From positions 1-31,566 of the forward strand of contig JBLIRS010000001.1 in assembly GCA_049472415.1 (NCBI GenBank): a stretch of 31,566 nt of DNA, given 5' to 3'. The translations under genes and the position numbers were made by a program. Shown here piece by piece: positions 2,290 through 7,848 of the stretch. Source of the stretch: a bacterium (lineage in GTDB: Bacteria; SZUA-182; DTGQ01; JAFGSM01). Under the pieces are notes generated by a model. It had not been told where the DNA came from, searched no databases, and saw only the letters and a list, made by a program, of their open reading frames with translations. How positions within the stretch are numbered: the first letter of the stretch is position 1; each line of letters opens with the position of its first letter.

Positions 2290-2723
2290 GAATTCACCTC
2301 CTTATTAAAAAACATATCCTTTCATATTTTGTGATAGATAAATGAAATACCTTCCCCCTTTTGAAATCCGAAGCTTTAAGAGCTGCATTGAGCTAAAATT
2401 TCTTAGTTTGCCTGTTTAGTCTTGTTCTTTAAAAATCATCAATCAGTATTTTAATGCAGAATGAATTGTGAGTTCAACTATTGATAATATTGTAATAGGT
2501 TATTGAAGGGGTTATTGGTATTTTTTGTCAAAGTAACGAAGCAAGCTTCAAGGCCTTCAAAAAAGGTCCGTAGACAACGAAATGACTTTTTTTAAGAATC
2601 CATAATCCAATAATAAAGATTTATGCATATATAAAATCGGTCTTATATATTTATATAATTTTTTTTTAATGCTATAATTTTGTTGATTTTGAAAATACAT
2701 AATGTTACCCTAAATCTTCTATC

Positions 2724-2778: not shown

Positions 2779-3648
2779 ATGAATATGAAATACACTTATC
2801 AGGAATTACGGAAGAAGATCGATCAAAGCAGAAAAGATTTGGCGGAGATAGAAAAATGTCTCAGGGAAGGGGAGGGTTTAGAAAAGGATCTTGATAAAAA
2901 TGTCTTTCAGATAGAGGACAGGCTTAAGAGGGTTGAACAGAAGGTGGAAAAATTAAAAGAACTGGAAGACCTGCGCGAGGATTTGAAAAAGGTAAAAGAG
3001 TTTGTTGTGGAGAAGAAAAAAATCCTTGAGCAACCTAAACATAAGCTGAAAATGTATTTAGGCGCTGAACTCGATCGAAGGTTTGGGGACAAGGGCTGGC
3101 ATATCGAAGGTAATTTCCCGGAGTTGAGGTTAGGGCTGCTGACCCTGGAGTTTTTACTATCGCAAGACCAGGTGAGGATCTGGTATGGACCGAAGATAGA
3201 GTTATTGAGCCGCTCCAAGCTTGTGGCGGATGATATTTCGAATATCGCGGGAAAAATATATGAAGATCTGGAAAACGAAAGCTTTAAGGATGGGGAAGCA
3301 TTTCTTAAACTCATTTTTGATGTCTATGGATGGATTTTAAAAAAAGAGGGGCTGGATTTCGGTGCCAATGTTTCTATAATTTATTTGTTAAGCGAGATAG
3401 CCTGGCGCAAGCAGGACGAGAAATTTTTTTCAGACCCCCGGAAAGAGCATTTCAGAAGTTACAGCCGTACACAATTGAGCTATGATCTTTTTCGACTTAA
3501 ACAACGTGAATGCGAGGGGTATGAATTGAGGCTGGGTGTGGCCAGCAGGGAGCAGACAAAAAATAAGGATGATAACCTCTGGATTCCAAGGAGTCTCAAA
3601 GGAGACGGTACCCATTTTGCCTTTGTCTGCTTTCATAAACATATATGA
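2779..3648 (+). CDS. Hypothetical protein, N-terminal coiled coil plus unknown C-terminal domain; first gene of ATPase/helicase operon
   Basis: 289 aa ORF with SD (GAGAGGGA); E/K/L heptad-rich first ~85 aa; stop lies 15 nt before the next likely ATG. Confidence 0.8.
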   Translation: MNMKYTYQELRKKIDQSRKDLAEIEKCLREGEGLEKDLDKNVFQIEDRLKRVEQKVEKLKELEDLREDLKKVKEFVVEKKKILEQPKHKLKMYLGAELDRRFGDKGWHIEGNFPELRLGLLTLEFLLSQDQVRIWYGPKIELLSRSKLVADDISNIAGKIYEDLENESFKDGEAFLKLIFDVYGWILKKEGLDFGANVSIIYLLSEIAWRKQDEKFFSDPRKEHFRSYSRTQLSYDLFRLKQRECEGYELRLGVASREQTKNKDDNLWIPRSLKGDGTHFAFVCFHKHI

Positions 3649-3663
3649 AGGATTTTGGATCTA

Positions 3664-4911
3664 ATGAATCAATTAAATAAGCATACGGCAAGAAGAATTA
3701 TTGAGACTGTTGGATCTTTCGGCACACCCCCTGAATGGGGTTTTCAGTATTTCACCGTGGGTCTCGATGATTATCTTCGTCTCATTGAGGATGAGTATCT
3801 GAAGACCTTTGTCAAAGAGGATGGGGGTTCCACCTTCAAGCTGGTTATCGGCGCTTATGGCGGAGGTAAAACCCATTTCTTGTATAATATTCGTGAGATG
3901 GCCTGGAACGAAAATTTTGTGGTCAGCTATGTAAACCTTAGCTCTGAAGAGGCTCCTTTTTACCGGCTTGAATTGGTATATCGTGCTATAGTGAACAATC
4001 TCATGTATCCGATGACCCCTGAAGAGCTTCTGAAAGGCCAGGAAAAGGGTATAGAGCCCTTTATCATAAACTGGTATGAGAAGCAGACCGAAATCTTCAT
4101 GGAAGCGGGTCTTCAGGGAGAGACCCTGGACCAGGAGCTTAACAACTATTCCGGGGCCATTCAGAGAAATATCGAAAATGTCAATTTTGCCAAGGCCGTT
4201 GCGCAGGAATTTCTTTTCCTGCATCAGGAGCGTGAAAAGGATTTTCGAAACATCCTTCAATGGTTAAAGCTGGAAGGTTATGACAGGAATATACACAAAG
4301 AGTATGGCCTGTTGCACCCAATAGGCCGCAGTAATTCCTTTTCCATGGTTCGTTCTCTTATTCAATGGGTAAAGAATATCGGTTATTCCGGAATAGTGAT
4401 CCTGTTTGATGAGGCGGAACAGGTGCCCAGCCTGAGCAGTAAGCAGAGGGAGTTGATGCTTAGCAATCTTAGAGAATTGATTGATGAATGCGGTCACGCG
4501 TCCTTTAAGAATGTTATGATCTTTTATGCCCTGCCCGACGAGCATATCTTTGAAGGCGCCTCCAATGTATATGAGGCGTTGAAACAGCGTATATCAAGTG
4601 TCTTCGACTTTTACAATCCTTCGGGGGTAAAGATCCGCCTTGAAGAAATGGATCGAGAGCCTATAATATTGCTGGAAAAGATCGGCAATAAGCTCAAAGC
4701 CGTATATGAAGACGCCTATGAATACTCCTTTAATGCCGACATATCCCCCTTTATAAAAAGGCTGGCCCAGGAGGCCTATGAACGCAGATTCGGTGATATT
4801 GGCTACATAAGGCTTTTTGTGCAGGGGGTTATTAAGGCCTTTCATATGGTAAGGAAAGAGCCAAAGGGTGCCTTTAATCAGGATACAACCTTAAAACTTC
4901 TGGAAGGATAG
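3664..4911 (+). CDS. P-loop ATPase, BrxD/DUF2791-like (BREX ATP-binding domain family)
   Basis: Walker A GAYGGGKTH, Walker B ILFDEAE, family-like segments GTPPEWG, VSYVNLS and PFYRLELVYRAIV. ATG 3664 preferred over TTG 3655 on SD spacing. Confidence 0.8.
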   Translation: MNQLNKHTARRIIETVGSFGTPPEWGFQYFTVGLDDYLRLIEDEYLKTFVKEDGGSTFKLVIGAYGGGKTHFLYNIREMAWNENFVVSYVNLSSEEAPFYRLELVYRAIVNNLMYPMTPEELLKGQEKGIEPFIINWYEKQTEIFMEAGLQGETLDQELNNYSGAIQRNIENVNFAKAVAQEFLFLHQEREKDFRNILQWLKLEGYDRNIHKEYGLLHPIGRSNSFSMVRSLIQWVKNIGYSGIVILFDEAEQVPSLSSKQRELMLSNLRELIDECGHASFKNVMIFYALPDEHIFEGASNVYEALKQRISSVFDFYNPSGVKIRLEEMDREPIILLEKIGNKLKAVYEDAYEYSFNADISPFIKRLAQEAYERRFGDIGYIRLFVQGVIKAFHMVRKEPKGAFNQDTTLKLLEG

Positions 4912-4925
4912 TAGAAGCAGAATTA

Positions 4926-6293
4926 ATGGAATGCCTAAAGGTAAGACATGCCATATTTGGCGAGGGCATAGCGATTGACAAAAGGCATCGTGGTCATGAA
5001 TACCTGGTTTGCTTCCCTCATTCCTTGCAACTCTGGTTAAAAAAAAGCAATTTGGCTTTTCTGGAAACAGAAATCCTTCCTGAAGAACAAAAACATATTC
5101 TTTCCCTGAATGAGCCTGAGCCGGAAGAAGCGGAGACCAGAATAACAGGAGAGGAACGGTCCGTCATCGAGGCCTTTCGTCTTGGGATTGTTCCGGCCCG
5201 GTCGATAAGGGAATGGACTGTGGGCAGGACCCGTGAGATAGAAACGGTACAAAAATGGCTTCAGGATGAATCATCCGGAACCATGATCATACGGGGAGAA
5301 TACGGAAGCGGTAAGACTCATCTGATTGAGTATCTCTATGCGAGCGGATTCGATCTTGATTATGCCGTCAGCCTTGTGGGTATCGATCCCTGTGACGCGC
5401 AACCCGGTTTCCCCAAGAGGATCTATCGCCACCTGATCAAAAACCTCAGGTTTCCCTACCAGGGTCACTACTATACCTTTTGTGAGCTATTGACCCTGAT
5501 CGGCAAAGGCTCTGAAAGGAATCCATTCCAGGGTCACTCCTTTTTGAAAGGGATAATGGAAAAGATAAAGAAAGAGAAGGATACTCCACAGATGTGGGAG
5601 TGGATAGAAGGCCAGGAGACAGCATTTTCTGAAATGGGCACCCTTTATGATCACACAACTGCCGCAAATATATACTGCAATATTTTGAGCGCTCTGGGAA
5701 TGCTTGCTGCAAAGGAATTGGGCCTGAAAGGTATACTACTCATGTTCGATGAGGCGGAAACCTCCCGCACCTATCGCTACTCTTATGAATGGACAAGGGC
5801 CGTAAATTTTTTCAATGCCCTTTCTATGGTGGCAAATGATGAGCCTGAGCTGAAGGAAGAGAGGGTGATAAAGGGTGATAATTATTATTATGGTGAAAGG
5901 ACAGGGCTGATATATTCCGGTTATGTCCGCATTCCATATGTATTTCAGCTTCCCAGCTTTCTTAAGGTGGCCTTTGCCTTCACTCCTGACTATAGACTCA
6001 GCCTCTCCAAAGAATACAATATTTATGAGATAGAATTGGAGTCGCTTCCTGTTCAACAGACAGAATACCTTTATTACAGGTTGATGGATATTTATGAGAA
6101 GATATATCAACACCAGATACCGAAAGGATATCGCAGGAGGCTCTTTGAAATGGTAAAGAATAATAGCTTTCAGTCCACTCGCAGGTTTATTAAGGCCATG
6201 GTGGAGAGCCTCGACTTCTCCAGGTTTTATTCCTTAAAAAACCTGGAAGATCTATTATCAAATGTATCCCACGGAAGAGTTTCTCAATATTAA
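4926..6293 (+). CDS. Second BrxD/DUF2791-like P-loop ATPase with small N-terminal beta domain
   Basis: 455 aa; IEAFRLGIVP, TVGRTREI, Walker A GEYGSGKTH, Walker B LMFDEAE; N-terminal VRHAIFGEG segment. Confidence 0.8.
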   Translation: MECLKVRHAIFGEGIAIDKRHRGHEYLVCFPHSLQLWLKKSNLAFLETEILPEEQKHILSLNEPEPEEAETRITGEERSVIEAFRLGIVPARSIREWTVGRTREIETVQKWLQDESSGTMIIRGEYGSGKTHLIEYLYASGFDLDYAVSLVGIDPCDAQPGFPKRIYRHLIKNLRFPYQGHYYTFCELLTLIGKGSERNPFQGHSFLKGIMEKIKKEKDTPQMWEWIEGQETAFSEMGTLYDHTTAANIYCNILSALGMLAAKELGLKGILLMFDEAETSRTYRYSYEWTRAVNFFNALSMVANDEPELKEERVIKGDNYYYGERTGLIYSGYVRIPYVFQLPSFLKVAFAFTPDYRLSLSKEYNIYEIELESLPVQQTEYLYYRLMDIYEKIYQHQIPKGYRRRLFEMVKNNSFQSTRRFIKAMVESLDFSRFYSLKNLEDLLSNVSHGRVSQY

Positions 6294-7848
6294 AAAACGG
6301 CTTAAGAGGACATGGGGACCTTTTTTCGGCAGATTCGGCAGCTTGAATTCCATCCAATTAGCTGTAATTCCTCATATTCTTAAAGGTGAAAATGTTATTA
6401 TCGCCTCCCCGACCGCCAGCGGGAAAACAGAAGCGGTTTTTGCCCCGTTGGTTGAAAGGGTTCATGAAACAGGAGCCGAGAGAGGTCTTGCAATCCTTTA
6501 TATTTCACCCACACGCGCCCTGGTAAACAATATCCACATCCGGCTAAACGGGATTCTGAAAGAGTGCGAACTGAGTGCAGCAGTAAAAACAGGTGACAGA
6601 CCCGAATTTTCTTTAAAGGATCCGGAGCATGTCCTCTTTACCACCCCTGAGTCCTTGGATTCCATGCTTTGTCGTCACCCTGATATATGGAAGGGTCTCA
6701 AGGCTATAATACTGGATGAGATCCACCTGATTGATGCAGGCTATAGGGGTGATCAATTACGAATACTGCTCGAGAGAATTAGATTTGAGCATATGAGGTC
6801 CTCCCTCCAGTATGCCGCCCTGTCAGCGACCCTGTATGAACCTGAGGACACGGCAAAACGCTATTTTCAGCCGGTTACCTCAATAAGGATAGGGGAGCCG
6901 AGACCGCTTTCACTGACACTTTTTTCTGATATTAAAAGGATGATAGAATTTATCAGACAGAAGAAGATACATAAGGTCCTGATATTTGCAAACAGCAGAA
7001 AGGATGTGGAGCGGCTTGGGACAGAGCTTAAAAACTTCTGGCCCAAAGACCGGATCATCATTCACCATGGAAGCCTTTCAAGGCAGATGAGAAGCGCCGC
7101 TGAAAAAGCGCTGCAGGAATGGCGATGGGGTATTTGCATCGCGACAATGACCCTTGAGATTGGGATTGATATAGGTGATTTCGATGCAGTAGTATGCTAT
7201 CGACCACCCCATACCCCCTCTTCCTTCCAGCAGCGAATAGGCAGGGGGTGCCGCCGGAGGGAGGTCATGCAGGCCCTTGGTTACTGTGACACAGAGGAAG
7301 AAAGGGCCTGCTTTAAACTCTATGAGCATATGGCCCGTCAGGGTGAGCTTGAGCCTATGGATTATGAACCGGACCCCTCGGTTGCTGTGCAGCAGATATT
7401 TTCATACCTTTTTTCCCATACGAGAGGAGAAGAGAAGGCACACCTGGAGTCTTTACTCAGTCCGCTTGTTGATGCATATCAAGTTGAGTCCATAATGAGC
7501 TACCTGACAGACCTGGGATATATTAATCAGAAAAGGGACCGGTTTTATGCAACTGAAAAACTCATGGATCTGGGAGAAAAGGGCTTAATACATTCCAATA
7601 TCCCAACCCTAAGAGAATATAAGGTTATAGACAAGAACACCGGCTGTCAGATCGGGGAGATTGGCCTCCAGGCCGTTCCCGGGACCATATTTGTCCTGGG
7701 CGGACGCGTCTGGGAGACTTTGTCAATAAAAGGATTAAACCTTTACGCCCGAACAATCGCCCAAAAGCCCCAATTCAAACATTTTCGCAGAAAAAGTCCT
7801 GCCGGCGCCTTTAGCAGGTTCCTGCCAGAGTCCTTTAAGATCCAATAA
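6262..7848 (+). CDS. DEAD/DEAH-box SF2 helicase, Lhr/BrxHI-like (short, 528 aa)
   Basis: Q-motif (LNSIQ), I SPTASGKTEA, Ia SPTRALVNN, Ib TTPESLD, II DEIH, III SAT, IV FANSRKDVE, HHGSLS, V ATMTLEIGIDIG, VI QRIGRGCRR. Overlaps the upstream ATPase by 32 nt. Confidence 0.9.
   Translation: MYPTEEFLNIKKRLKRTWGPFFGRFGSLNSIQLAVIPHILKGENVIIASPTASGKTEAVFAPLVERVHETGAERGLAILYISPTRALVNNIHIRLNGILKECELSAAVKTGDRPEFSLKDPEHVLFTTPESLDSMLCRHPDIWKGLKAIILDEIHLIDAGYRGDQLRILLERIRFEHMRSSLQYAALSATLYEPEDTAKRYFQPVTSIRIGEPRPLSLTLFSDIKRMIEFIRQKKIHKVLIFANSRKDVERLGTELKNFWPKDRIIIHHGSLSRQMRSAAEKALQEWRWGICIATMTLEIGIDIGDFDAVVCYRPPHTPSSFQQRIGRGCRRREVMQALGYCDTEEERACFKLYEHMARQGELEPMDYEPDPSVAVQQIFSYLFSHTRGEEKAHLESLLSPLVDAYQVESIMSYLTDLGYINQKRDRFYATEKLMDLGEKGLIHSNIPTLREYKVIDKNTGCQIGEIGLQAVPGTIFVLGGRVWETLSIKGLNLYARTIAQKPQFKHFRRKSPAGAFSRFLPESFKIQ

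What the first reader, a model, noticed from the sequence alone, without database searches (positions are those of the whole stretch)
2779..7848. Stand-alone four-gene module: coiled-coil protein, TWO BrxD/DUF2791-like ATPases and a short Lhr-like helicase (candidate undescribed defence/stress system)
Seen: four co-oriented, tightly coupled genes (gaps of 15 and 14 nt, then a 32-nt overlap), bounded by AT-rich intergenic regions of about 490 and 250 bp. Both ATPases have intact Walker A/B motifs and the helicase has all SF2 motifs. Established: a BrxD ATPase plus BrxHI Lhr-like helicase pair is an accessory part of BREX types 2 and 6, and a DUF2791-Lhr pair also occurs in TerB-linked operons. 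Here there is no PglX methylase, PglZ, BrxC, TerB or recognisable nuclease, the ATPase is duplicated into two divergent paralogs, and an unknown coiled-coil gene leads the operon. Inference: an autonomous anti-phage or nucleic-acid surveillance machine built on a heteromeric ATPase, with the 289-aa protein as sensor or effector.
Basis: partly seen in the sequence, partly recalled or inferred. Interest (0 to 1): 0.85.

Follow-up and report, generated by a model that had tools for sequence, protein, structure and literature searches.

The report
Unnamed twin-ATPase plus helicase cassette
Four genes (an unknown coiled-coil protein, two related ATPases and a helicase) form a real, widespread and so far undescribed relative of two known anti-phage modules, but whether it defends against phages or maintains the cell's own DNA is still open.

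Summary
Gene 1 (289 aa) matches no Pfam, PADLOC or NCBIfam family. Genes 2 and 3 are full-length paralogous PF10923 (BrxD/SngB-type) ATPases. Gene 4 is a short Lhr-like SF2 helicase. The gene 1 family has 778 clusters at 50% identity. The four-gene order recurs across at least eight phyla. Trees place the ATPases and the helicase in clades of their own, beside Shango (SngB/SngC) and BREX-2 (BrxD/BrxHI). The assembly has no TerB, PglZ or nuclease. ATPase 2 carries an N-terminal PcrA/UvrD-type Tudor domain. A co-fold supports an ATPase1-ATPase2 heterodimer (0.74 against best control 0.23). In this genus the cassette is accessory and horizontally moved. In one whole order, however, all seven genomes keep the genes scattered among housekeeping genes, and neighbours elsewhere are mostly housekeeping. 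Most likely it is an RNA-polymerase-tethered helicase-loading or surveillance complex, with defence somewhat more likely than genome maintenance. I found no description in the searchable literature. This scan has already met the same cassette at least six times on other DNA.

The parts
2650..2678 (+). Promoter-like site (TTTATA, 17 nt, TGcTATAAT) about 100 nt before gene 1
   Evidence: Consensus scan, 10 of 12 matches with an extended -10. The block is conserved in the close relative G004. This is a consensus match only, and the count of such sites in the region is not above the shuffles.
2779..3648 (+). Gene 1: 289-aa lead protein. Residues 7-104 form an antiparallel helical hairpin (coiled coil). 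Residues 105-289 form an alpha/beta domain with no recognisable relative.
   Evidence: No Pfam, PADLOC or NCBIfam family apart from chance coiled-coil hits. The family has 778 clusters at 50% identity. AF2 gives pLDDT 87 for the whole protein and 96.5 for the domain alone. Foldseek finds no PDB match below E 0.6. AFDB returns only uncharacterised family members. The C-terminal half gives many weak winged-helix matches, Z 5-6.2.
3664..4911 (+). Gene 2: ATPase 1, a full-length PF10923 (BrxC_BrxD) ORC/Cdc6-type AAA+ ATPase of 415 aa
   Evidence: PF10923 E 1.6e-48 over profile positions 3-409 of 414. PADLOC BrxD 2.8e-40 and SngB 1e-27. NCBIfam BrxD scores 138 bits against a cut-off of 350. Walker A and B are invariant. 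It forms its own clade in the tree.
4926..5060 (+). N-terminal PcrA/UvrD-type Tudor domain of ATPase 2 (residues 1-45), followed by a variable linker to about residue 75
   Evidence: Conserved in 14 of 15 orthologues; H8, G12, G14, V28 and F30 are invariant. The profile's four best PDB hits are UvrD/PcrA C-terminal Tudor domains, E 1.5e-4 to 3e-3. PF21196 is hit by 5 of 13 members but not by the window's own copy.
4926..6293 (+). Gene 3: ATPase 2 (455 aa), a divergent full-length paralog of ATPase 1 behind the Tudor domain
   Evidence: Pfam sees only residues 76-175. hhalign of the two orthologue alignments gives 99.8% probability and E 5.7e-30 over 339 columns, residues 76-441 against 8-405. 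Walker A and B are invariant.
6262..7848 (+). Gene 4: short (528 aa) Lhr-like / Ski2-like SF2 helicase, overlapping gene 3 by 32 nt
   Evidence: DEAD 1e-31 and Helicase_C 3.5e-17. PADLOC BrxHI 2.2e-69 and SngC 3.5e-68. All NCBIfam Lhr models score far below their cut-offs. It forms its own clade, and the short forms form one subclade.

Best explanation
The four genes encode one self-contained ATP-driven nucleic-acid surveillance machine. It is a third lineage of the 'PF10923 ATPase plus Lhr-like helicase' module, whose two known lineages serve Shango and BREX type 2. The two paralogous ORC/Cdc6-type ATPases form a hetero-oligomer (model-supported). ATPase 2 tethers it through its PcrA/UvrD-type Tudor domain to RNA polymerase or a similar partner (inferred from the domain family). 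The coiled-coil protein, with its possibly winged-helix-like domain, takes the place that the TerB protein has in Shango and acts as adaptor or sensor (inferred). The ATPase pair loads or activates the Lhr-like 3'-5' helicase on DNA or RNA:DNA hybrids (inferred by analogy to what has been proposed for BrxD-BrxHI). In this genome the cassette is an accessory, horizontally acquired unit. Its most likely role here is defence against invading DNA. No part of the function has been tested.
For: Unit and conservation. The same four genes in the same order occur in Acidobacteriota, Nitrospinae, Desulfobacterota-type, Myxococcales, Tectomicrobia, WOR-3 and other MAGs. The gene 1 family has 778 clusters at 50% identity, and the cassette is still intact at rank 150 of that list. 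The ATPase 1 and ATPase 2 trees mirror each other.

Kinship to defence modules. PADLOC gives BrxD/SngB and BrxHI/SngC as best hits. Shango is experimentally anti-phage (PMC10250203). BrxD-BrxHI is a linked pair in BREX-2 and has been proposed to act as helicase loader and helicase (PMC12839542).

Separate lineage. The trees show four ATPase clades and a distinct helicase clade, all with starred support.

Heteromer. Co-fold score 0.74 against best control 0.23; this mark was reached by 58 of 80 solved complexes and 2 of 110 mismatched pairs. Conserved residues of ATPase 2 are enriched at the predicted interface, 9 observed against 2.5 expected, p 2.5e-4.

Tudor domain.

Accessory and mobile here. 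The cassette is found in 3 of 5 genomes of the genus and 2 of 6 of a neighbouring family. A same-genus genome (GyrB 83% identical) has gene 1 at 59% identity, while a distant genome (GyrB 56%) has it at 68% and ATPase 1 at 82%. Flanking genes differ in every lineage. One genome carries two copies.

Defence-type neighbours occur now and then: HEPN, a DpdE/ZorD-like SNF2 helicase, PDC-S01 and a HerA-like DUF87 protein.
Against: There is no nuclease, methylase, TerB or other effector in the cassette. Most of the 60 immediate neighbours in 21 loci are housekeeping genes. There are no copies in 72,556 plasmids, 50,697 phage records or IMG/VR, although the host phyla are poorly represented in those collections. 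In one order all 7 genomes keep gene 1 and ATPase 1, and 5 of 7 show the helicase. There the genes are dispersed over three loci inside housekeeping operons, in a closed genome more than 100 kb apart. That is unlike a defence island. The Tudor domain and the RNA:DNA-unwinding Lhr kinship also fit transcription-coupled genome maintenance. The co-fold used my own alignments, and paralogous AAA+ proteins may be laid side by side from memory of solved oligomers. No biochemical or genetic test exists.
Confidence: 0.5

Rival explanations
1. The cassette is a cellular genome-maintenance complex, not an immune system. In this reading it is an RNA-polymerase-tethered loader (ATPase pair plus adaptor) that puts an Lhr-type helicase on R-loops, stalled transcription complexes or damaged DNA. 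It would be optional in most lineages, like Ku-LigD or the Lhr-MPE-ligase set, and fixed as core in some.
For: In the order of G401, gene 1 and ATPase 1 are present in 7 of 7 genomes and the helicase in 5 of 7. The genes are dispersed among housekeeping genes: gene 1 follows HPS-SIS, the ATPase pair lies between rsmB-rpe and selA, and in closed genome G403 the helicase directly follows a family-B DNA polymerase. Neighbours elsewhere are mostly housekeeping. The cassette is absent from plasmids, phages and viral contigs. The PcrA/UvrD-type Tudor domain binds RNA polymerase in those repair helicases (my own knowledge of that literature). Lhr helicases unwind RNA:DNA hybrids 3'-5' (PMC8301817). 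Some gene 1 relatives carry an N-terminal Rho_N/SAP-like nucleic-acid-binding motif.
Against: Only about 3-4% of 401 sampled genomes carry it. It is patchy within this genus, and its tree conflicts with GyrB. The only characterised relatives of its ATPase and helicase work in anti-phage systems. Tudor domains also occur on BREX-3 and BR-system helicases (PMC12839542). The polymerase adjacency is not conserved in G401 or G402.
Confidence: 0.35
2. The cassette is a decayed remnant of a BREX type 2/6 or Shango locus that lost its methylase/PglZ or TerB partner, with no function of its own.
For: Best PADLOC hits are BrxD/SngB and BrxHI/SngC. No partners are present in the locus.
Against: All four genes are intact, with invariant catalytic motifs. 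The same four-gene set recurs in hundreds of lineages. Its ATPases and helicase form clades separate from both BrxD/BrxHI and SngB/SngC. One genome (G007) has a true BrxD-BrxHI elsewhere in addition to the cassette.
Confidence: 0.03
3. The cassette is a function of a mobile element itself, for example replication initiation or helicase loading for an integrated element, given the ORC/Cdc6-type ATPases and weak Cdt1/ORC-like winged-helix matches of gene 1.
For: BrxD is classed as an ORC/Cdc6-type AAA+ ATPase (PMC12839542). The C-terminal half of gene 1 gives weak winged-helix matches that include ORC, Cdc6 and Cdt1 domains, Z 5-6.2. The cassette shows horizontal spread.
Against: No integrase, transposase, relaxase or phage genes flank it in the window or in most loci. 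It is absent from plasmid, phage and viral collections. The winged-helix Z-scores are below the level at which a fold match can be trusted.
Confidence: 0.05

Closest known systems
Shango (SngA TerB-domain protein, SngB ATPase, SngC helicase; Millman et al. 2022; Johnson et al. 2023, PMC10250203)
   Same: Both have a PF10923 ATPase immediately followed by an Lhr-like DEAD/DEAH helicase, led by a non-enzymatic protein, with no nuclease or methylase. PADLOC SngB 1e-27 and SngC 3.5e-68. Both stand alone.
   Different: The lead protein has no TerB, TerB_N or TerB_C domain and has an unrelated fold. There are two ATPases instead of one, the second with a Tudor domain. The ATPases and helicase lie in clades outside SngB and SngC. 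The helicase is about 200 aa shorter here. Shango sits on 684 plasmid records, the cassette on none.
BrxD-BrxHI pair of BREX types 2 and 6 (Goldfarb et al. 2015; PMC12839542)
   Same: An ORC/Cdc6-type AAA+ ATPase is tightly linked to a Ski2/Lhr-like helicase. These are the best PADLOC and NCBIfam hits (BrxD 2.8e-40, BrxHI 2.2e-69). The proposed loader-helicase logic is the same.
   Different: No PglX, PglZ, BrxC or PglW is present in the locus or the assembly. BrxD scores 138 bits against the equivalog cut-off of 350. The clades are separate. The ATPase is duplicated and there is a new lead gene.
Lhr / Lhr-core DNA-RNA helicases (bLhr, bLhr-HTH; PMC8301817)
   Same: SF2 core with a DExH motif and best general NCBIfam hits to Lhr-type helicases. 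It belongs with the 'Lhr-like' group, which lacks a recognisable Domain 4.
   Different: Domain 4 / DEAD_assoc is not detected. Scores are far below every Lhr equivalog cut-off, for example 172 bits against 850. It is always paired with the twin ATPases.
PcrA/UvrD C-terminal Tudor domain (PF21196; PDB 6YI2, 7EGS, 7EGT, 5DMA)
   Same: The VxHxxFGxGxV...V.F pattern is shared. The profile of the ATPase 2 N-termini hits these four structures first.
   Different: Here the domain is at the N-terminus of an AAA+ ATPase, not at the C-terminus of an SF1 helicase. Its binding partner is untested.

Membership tests
Shango | Lead protein with TerB / TerB_N / TerB_C domains (SngA) | tested here: not met
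   Gene 1 has no TerB-type Pfam hit. No TerB_N or TerB was found in the 64%-complete assembly. True Shango loci fetched for comparison all show TerB_N/TerB_C upstream of the ATPase.
Shango | One SngB-clade ATPase and one SngC-clade helicase in a three-gene operon | tested here: not met
   There are two ATPases. ATPase 1, ATPase 2 and the helicase each fall outside the SngB and SngC clades with starred support.
Shango | Anti-phage activity on expression | not testable with these tools
   An experiment is needed.
BREX type 2/6 | Core genes PglX methyltransferase, PglZ and BrxC in the locus | tested here: not met
   None are among the window's ORFs near the cassette. No PglZ is in the assembly. 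The only PF10923 genes in the assembly are the two cassette ATPases.
BREX type 2/6 | BrxD equivalog (NF033438, cut-off 350 bits) | tested here: not met
   138 bits for ATPase 1 and 54 bits for ATPase 2. True BrxD proteins in G007 and G240 score 540-642 bits.
Pfam PF10923 (BrxC_BrxD ATPase family) | Score above the gathering threshold of 22.2 bits | tested here: met
   166.1 bits (ATPase 1) and 70.2 bits (ATPase 2). Full-length homology of the two is shown by hhalign, E 5.7e-30.
Lhr / Lhr-core helicase | SF2 DExH core plus winged helix plus Domain 4, scoring above the NCBIfam equivalog cut-offs | tested here: not met
   The SF2 core is present. No DEAD_assoc / Domain 4 hit was found. The best Lhr-type models score 172 and 161 bits against cut-offs near 850.
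PcrA/UvrD Tudor domain (PF21196) | Sequence match of the N-terminal 45 residues of ATPase 2 | tested here: inconclusive
   The family profile hits UvrD/PcrA Tudor structures at E 1.5e-4 to 3e-3 as its top four matches. Five of 13 orthologues hit PF21196, best 6e-5, but the window's own copy does not hit on its own. It does share all invariant residues.
Catalogued defence systems (PADLOC-DB 2.0.0) | Gene 1 or the four-gene set matches a named or PDC candidate system | tested here: not met
   Gene 1 gives only chance coiled-coil hits to LmuB (E 0.007). The ATPases hit only BrxD and SngB. Newer DefenseFinder or PADLOC releases could not be run.

The most novel reading that the evidence does not exclude
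The cassette is a previously unrecognised bacterial machine. A heteromeric ORC/Cdc6-like ATPase pair and a coiled-coil/winged-helix adaptor would dock on RNA polymerase and load an Lhr-type helicase. The same machine would be used as mobile immunity in some lineages and fixed as a core genome-maintenance factor in others. The lead protein would represent a new fold family.
Probability: 0.35. Interest if true: 0.8.

Novelty: new variant of a known kind. Interest (0 to 1): 0.65.

Why it matters
How Shango and the BrxD-BrxHI pair work is unknown. A third, simpler lineage of the same motor gives a comparative handle on what the common ATPase-helicase core does. This lineage is widespread: 778 clusters at 50% identity, and about as frequent as Shango in a 401-genome sample. 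It has a duplicated ATPase, a Tudor tether and a new lead protein. The same four proteins are mobile and patchy in one lineage but universally kept and unlinked in another. That contrast makes it a good case for asking how immune modules and genome-maintenance modules exchange roles.

Tried and rejected
- Fold assignment for gene 1 failed. Foldseek against the PDB gave nothing below E 0.6, for both the whole protein and the domain alone. AFDB clusters returned only uncharacterised family members. VIA-wide on the whole model returned only coiled-coil look-alikes. On the domain it returned weak winged-helix matches (Z 5-6.2), which I treat as a lead, not a finding.
- I looked for a catalytic site in gene 1. 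The acidic and His residues conserved among close relatives (E115, E258, H279) are not kept across the wide family, so I rejected the 'effector enzyme' reading.
- Defence-island enrichment: the scan of 60 immediate neighbours gave a few defence-type hits among mostly housekeeping genes. I had no proper background rate, so the result is equivocal.
- An empty-site comparison within the genus failed because the flanking cupin gene is itself absent from the genomes that lack the cassette.
- The PolB-helicase adjacency seen in G403 is not conserved in G401 or G402.
- No intrinsic terminator was found after gene 4, and promoter-like sites are not above the shuffles.
- The metatranscriptome evidence is only three short contigs, and DNA carry-over is not excluded.
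- Literature searches for BrxD, DUF2791, PF10923, Shango-like and Lhr-like helicase found no description of the cassette. The library lacks most subscription journals.


Full report
**Observation.** The window holds four co-oriented ORFs at 2779-3648, 3655/3664-4911, 4926-6293 and 6262-7848. Orthologue gene calls of 415 aa favour the ATG at 3664. The flanks are AT-rich spacers of 489 and 253 nt, with GC 0.31-0.36 against 0.42-0.51 inside the genes. A promoter-like site with an extended -10 lies at 2650-2678. That block and the leader are conserved in the closest relative.

**What the genes are.**
- Gene 1 (289 aa) has no family in Pfam, PADLOC or NCBIfam, only chance coiled-coil hits.
- Gene 2 matches PF10923 (BrxC_BrxD) end to end, E 1.6e-48. 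Its best PADLOC hits are BrxD (2.8e-40) and SngB (1e-27). It reaches only 138 bits against the 350-bit cut-off of the NCBIfam BrxD equivalog.
- Gene 3 is seen by Pfam only over residues 76-175. Profile-profile comparison of 15 orthologues of each ATPase shows full-length paralogy: 99.8% probability, E 5.7e-30, 339 columns.
- Both ATPases keep invariant Walker A and B motifs.
- Gene 4 has the DEAD and Helicase_C domains, and all SF2 motifs can be read. It scores equally for BrxHI (2.2e-69) and SngC (3.5e-68). It lies far below every Lhr equivalog cut-off.
- The 64%-complete, 2.8-Mb assembly holds no other PF10923 gene and no PglZ, TerB_N or TerB.
- DNA runs that hold the stretch come from marine, estuarine and other sediment metagenomes.

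**Is it a unit?**
- Gene 1 has 32 close relatives in the 5.8-billion-protein collection. A profile search finds 778 clusters at 50% identity, 293 of them at E 1e-30 or better, nearly all about 280 aa long.
- Wherever the contig allows, gene 1 is followed by ATPase 1, ATPase 2 and the helicase. This holds in MAGs labelled Acidobacteria, Nitrospinae, Deltaproteobacteria, Myxococcales, Tectomicrobia, WOR-3 and others. It still holds for the 150th-ranked representative.
- In a 401-genome sample, 28 genomes carry a BrxD-like ATPase. After neighbours were fetched, 15-16 of these are the four-gene cassette, 11 of them outside the window's class. About ten are Shango, with TerB_N/TerB_C confirmed upstream. 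Two are true BrxD, one of them beside PglZ. In this sample the cassette is therefore about as common as Shango.

**Relation to the known modules.** A maximum-likelihood tree of 40 ATPases resolves four groups. SngB (100/100), BrxD (100/99) and cassette ATPase 2 (99/98) are each well supported. ATPase 1 is supported at 100/99 for 12 of its 13 rows. BrxD and SngB lie nearer to each other than to either cassette ATPase. The helicase tree gives the same picture: the cassette clade has 100/100 support against SngC plus BrxHI. The internal branching of ATPase 1, ATPase 2 and the helicase is congruent, so the genes travel together. The short (about 525 aa) helicases, including this one, form one subclade. 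Most other cassettes have 640-700-aa helicases with an extra C-terminal region that Pfam does not recognise, and one has a fused SF1 helicase. The cassette is therefore neither a Shango subtype nor a BREX fragment. It is a third lineage of the same motor.

**New anatomical points tested here.**
1. The first 45 residues of ATPase 2 (VxHxxFGxGxV...V.F) are conserved in 14 of 15 orthologues. A profile built from them finds, as its four best PDB matches, the C-terminal Tudor domains of UvrD and PcrA, E 1.5e-4 to 3e-3. Five of 13 members hit PF21196, though the window's own copy does not hit on its own. In PcrA/UvrD this domain docks on RNA polymerase (my knowledge of that literature, not tested here). 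Tudor domains are also reported on BREX-3 and BR-system helicases (PMC12839542).
2. Gene 1 folds with high confidence (pLDDT 87 whole, 96.5 for the domain alone) into a long helical hairpin (residues 7-104) plus an alpha/beta domain. Foldseek finds no relative in the PDB, and AFDB gives only uncharacterised family members. An exhaustive structural scan gives only weak matches (Z 5-6.2) of the C-terminal half to winged-helix domains, among them those of ORC, Cdc6 and Cdt1. This is a lead only.
3. Across the wide family, the conserved residues are mostly Gly, Pro and aromatics plus Q212, R230, D236 and T260. This argues against an enzyme.
4. Some relatives carry an N-terminal Rho_N/SAP-like motif, and their cassettes are otherwise the same.
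5. A controlled co-fold of ATPase 1 with ATPase 2 scored 0.74 against a best control of 0.23. This mark was reached by 58 of 80 solved complexes and 2 of 110 mismatched pairs, and the counts hold only roughly because my own alignments were used. The predicted interface uses the invariant N-terminal IEAFRLGIVP motif and the C-terminal RxFIKxxVExLD helix of ATPase 2. Conserved residues are enriched there: 9 against 2.5 expected, p 2.5e-4. There is no significant enrichment on the ATPase 1 side (8 against 5.3).

**Defence or maintenance? Points for mobility and an accessory status in this lineage.**
- The cassette is found in 3 of 5 genomes of the genus. One of the two without it is 97% complete. 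It is also found in 2 of 6 genomes of a neighbouring family.
- The neighbours differ even within the genus.
- Identities conflict with GyrB. For G004 the values are GyrB 93% and cassette 88-96%. For same-genus G001 they are GyrB 83% but gene 1 59% and ATPase 2 65%. For the distant G115 they are GyrB 56% but gene 1 68%, ATPase 1 82% and helicase 71%.
- One genome carries two copies.
- Part of the 5' leader is shared with the distant G115 copy.

**Points against a classical defence island.**
- The 60 nearest neighbours in 21 loci are mostly housekeeping genes. Defence-type genes occur only now and then: HEPN, a DpdE/ZorD-like SNF2 helicase, PDC-S01 and DUF87.
- No copy exists in 72,556 plasmids, where the best hits at 25% identity or less are Shango. 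None exists in 50,697 phage records or in IMG/VR.
- Most telling, two apparent 'solo' gene 1 homologues (L019, L021) led to an order in which all 7 genomes have gene 1 and ATPase 1, and 5 of 7 show the helicase. There the genes are dispersed. Gene 1 sits after hexulose-phosphate synthase and SIS. The ATPase pair lies between rsmB-rpe and selA. The helicase is elsewhere.
- In the closed 2.54-Mb genome G403 the three loci lie at 1.19, 1.41 and 1.51 Mb, and the helicase directly follows a family-B DNA polymerase gene.
- That polymerase adjacency is not conserved in G401 or G402.
- Co-retention without linkage shows that the four proteins are selected together. It also shows that in that order they behave as core genes.

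**Verdict.** The best-supported mechanism is a self-contained complex. A heteromeric ORC/Cdc6-type ATPase pair is tethered through a Tudor domain, probably to RNA polymerase. The gene 1 protein acts as adaptor or sensor in the position that TerB holds in Shango. The pair loads or activates an Lhr-like 3'-5' helicase on DNA or RNA:DNA hybrids; Lhr activities are taken from PMC8301817 and the loader idea from PMC12839542.
- Shown: gene structure, conservation as a unit, paralogy, separate clades, mobility in this lineage and core status in another.
- Model-supported: the heterodimer.
- Inferred: the tether, the adaptor role, helicase loading and the biological role.
- I put defence at about 0.5 and cellular genome maintenance at about 0.35. 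The two may both be true in different lineages.

**Expression, literature and earlier notes.** Weak evidence of expression exists: a metatranscriptomic library holds exact short contigs inside ATPase 2 and the helicase. I found no description of this cassette in the searchable literature. Earlier notes of this scan describe the same cassette on at least six other genomes, with the same closest-known system. I re-tested their main claims independently here.

Noticed in passing
L019:6911-7747, L088:5602-8183, L093-L095 (genomes G401-G407): In one whole order (7 genomes of 1.6-2.5 Mb) the cassette's genes are all kept but split over three loci among housekeeping genes. In closed genome G403 the helicase gene starts 4 nt after a family-B DNA polymerase gene and is followed by a DUF123 gene.
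   Followed up: partly
L068:5966-10696: One cassette has a 1576-aa helicase. The Lhr-like SF2 core is fused to a C-terminal SF1 helicase (AAA_11/AAA_12, Upf1/Dna2-like).
   Followed up: no
L069 and L073 (genome G328): One genome carries two complete, divergent copies of the four-gene cassette on different contigs.
   Followed up: no
L017:6174-9602 and L053 (genome G007): A same-order genome has a cassette whose ATPase 2 lacks the Tudor domain and whose helicase gene is missing; a reverse-strand gene follows instead. On another contig the same genome has a true BrxD-BrxHI pair (642 bits to the BrxD equivalog).
   Followed up: partly
P0108, P0109, P0161, P0167; L031, L032: Some gene 1 relatives are 350-470 aa long and carry an extra N-terminal Rho_N/SAP-like nucleic-acid-binding motif (E 1e-5 to 6e-4, around the Pfam threshold). 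Their cassettes are otherwise standard.
   Followed up: partly
window:2715-2750: The leader motif CTTGCAATTTTTC...TGTCTGTTAGACTGG (with the small inverted repeat GTCT-3-AGAC) is conserved in G004 and partly in the distant G115 cassette. It may be a regulatory site that travels with the cassette.
   Followed up: no
window:8102-9487: The downstream gene encodes a 461-aa protein with a signal-peptide-like N-terminus, a Tyr/Asn/Ser-rich low-complexity region and Met-rich repeats. It has no Pfam, PADLOC or NCBIfam family and is not part of the cassette, since it is absent downstream in the close relative G004.
   Followed up: no
window:2300-8200 in runs X1 and X3: The sediment metagenomes hold several co-existing variants of the cassette at 90-95% identity beside exact copies. 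This indicates strain-level diversity in the source community.
   Followed up: no
L005:1-2154: In the close relative G004, a contractile-injection-system cluster (phage-sheath-like and Pvc16_N genes) lies about 7 kb upstream of the cassette, beyond the shared MauG and cupin genes.
   Followed up: no
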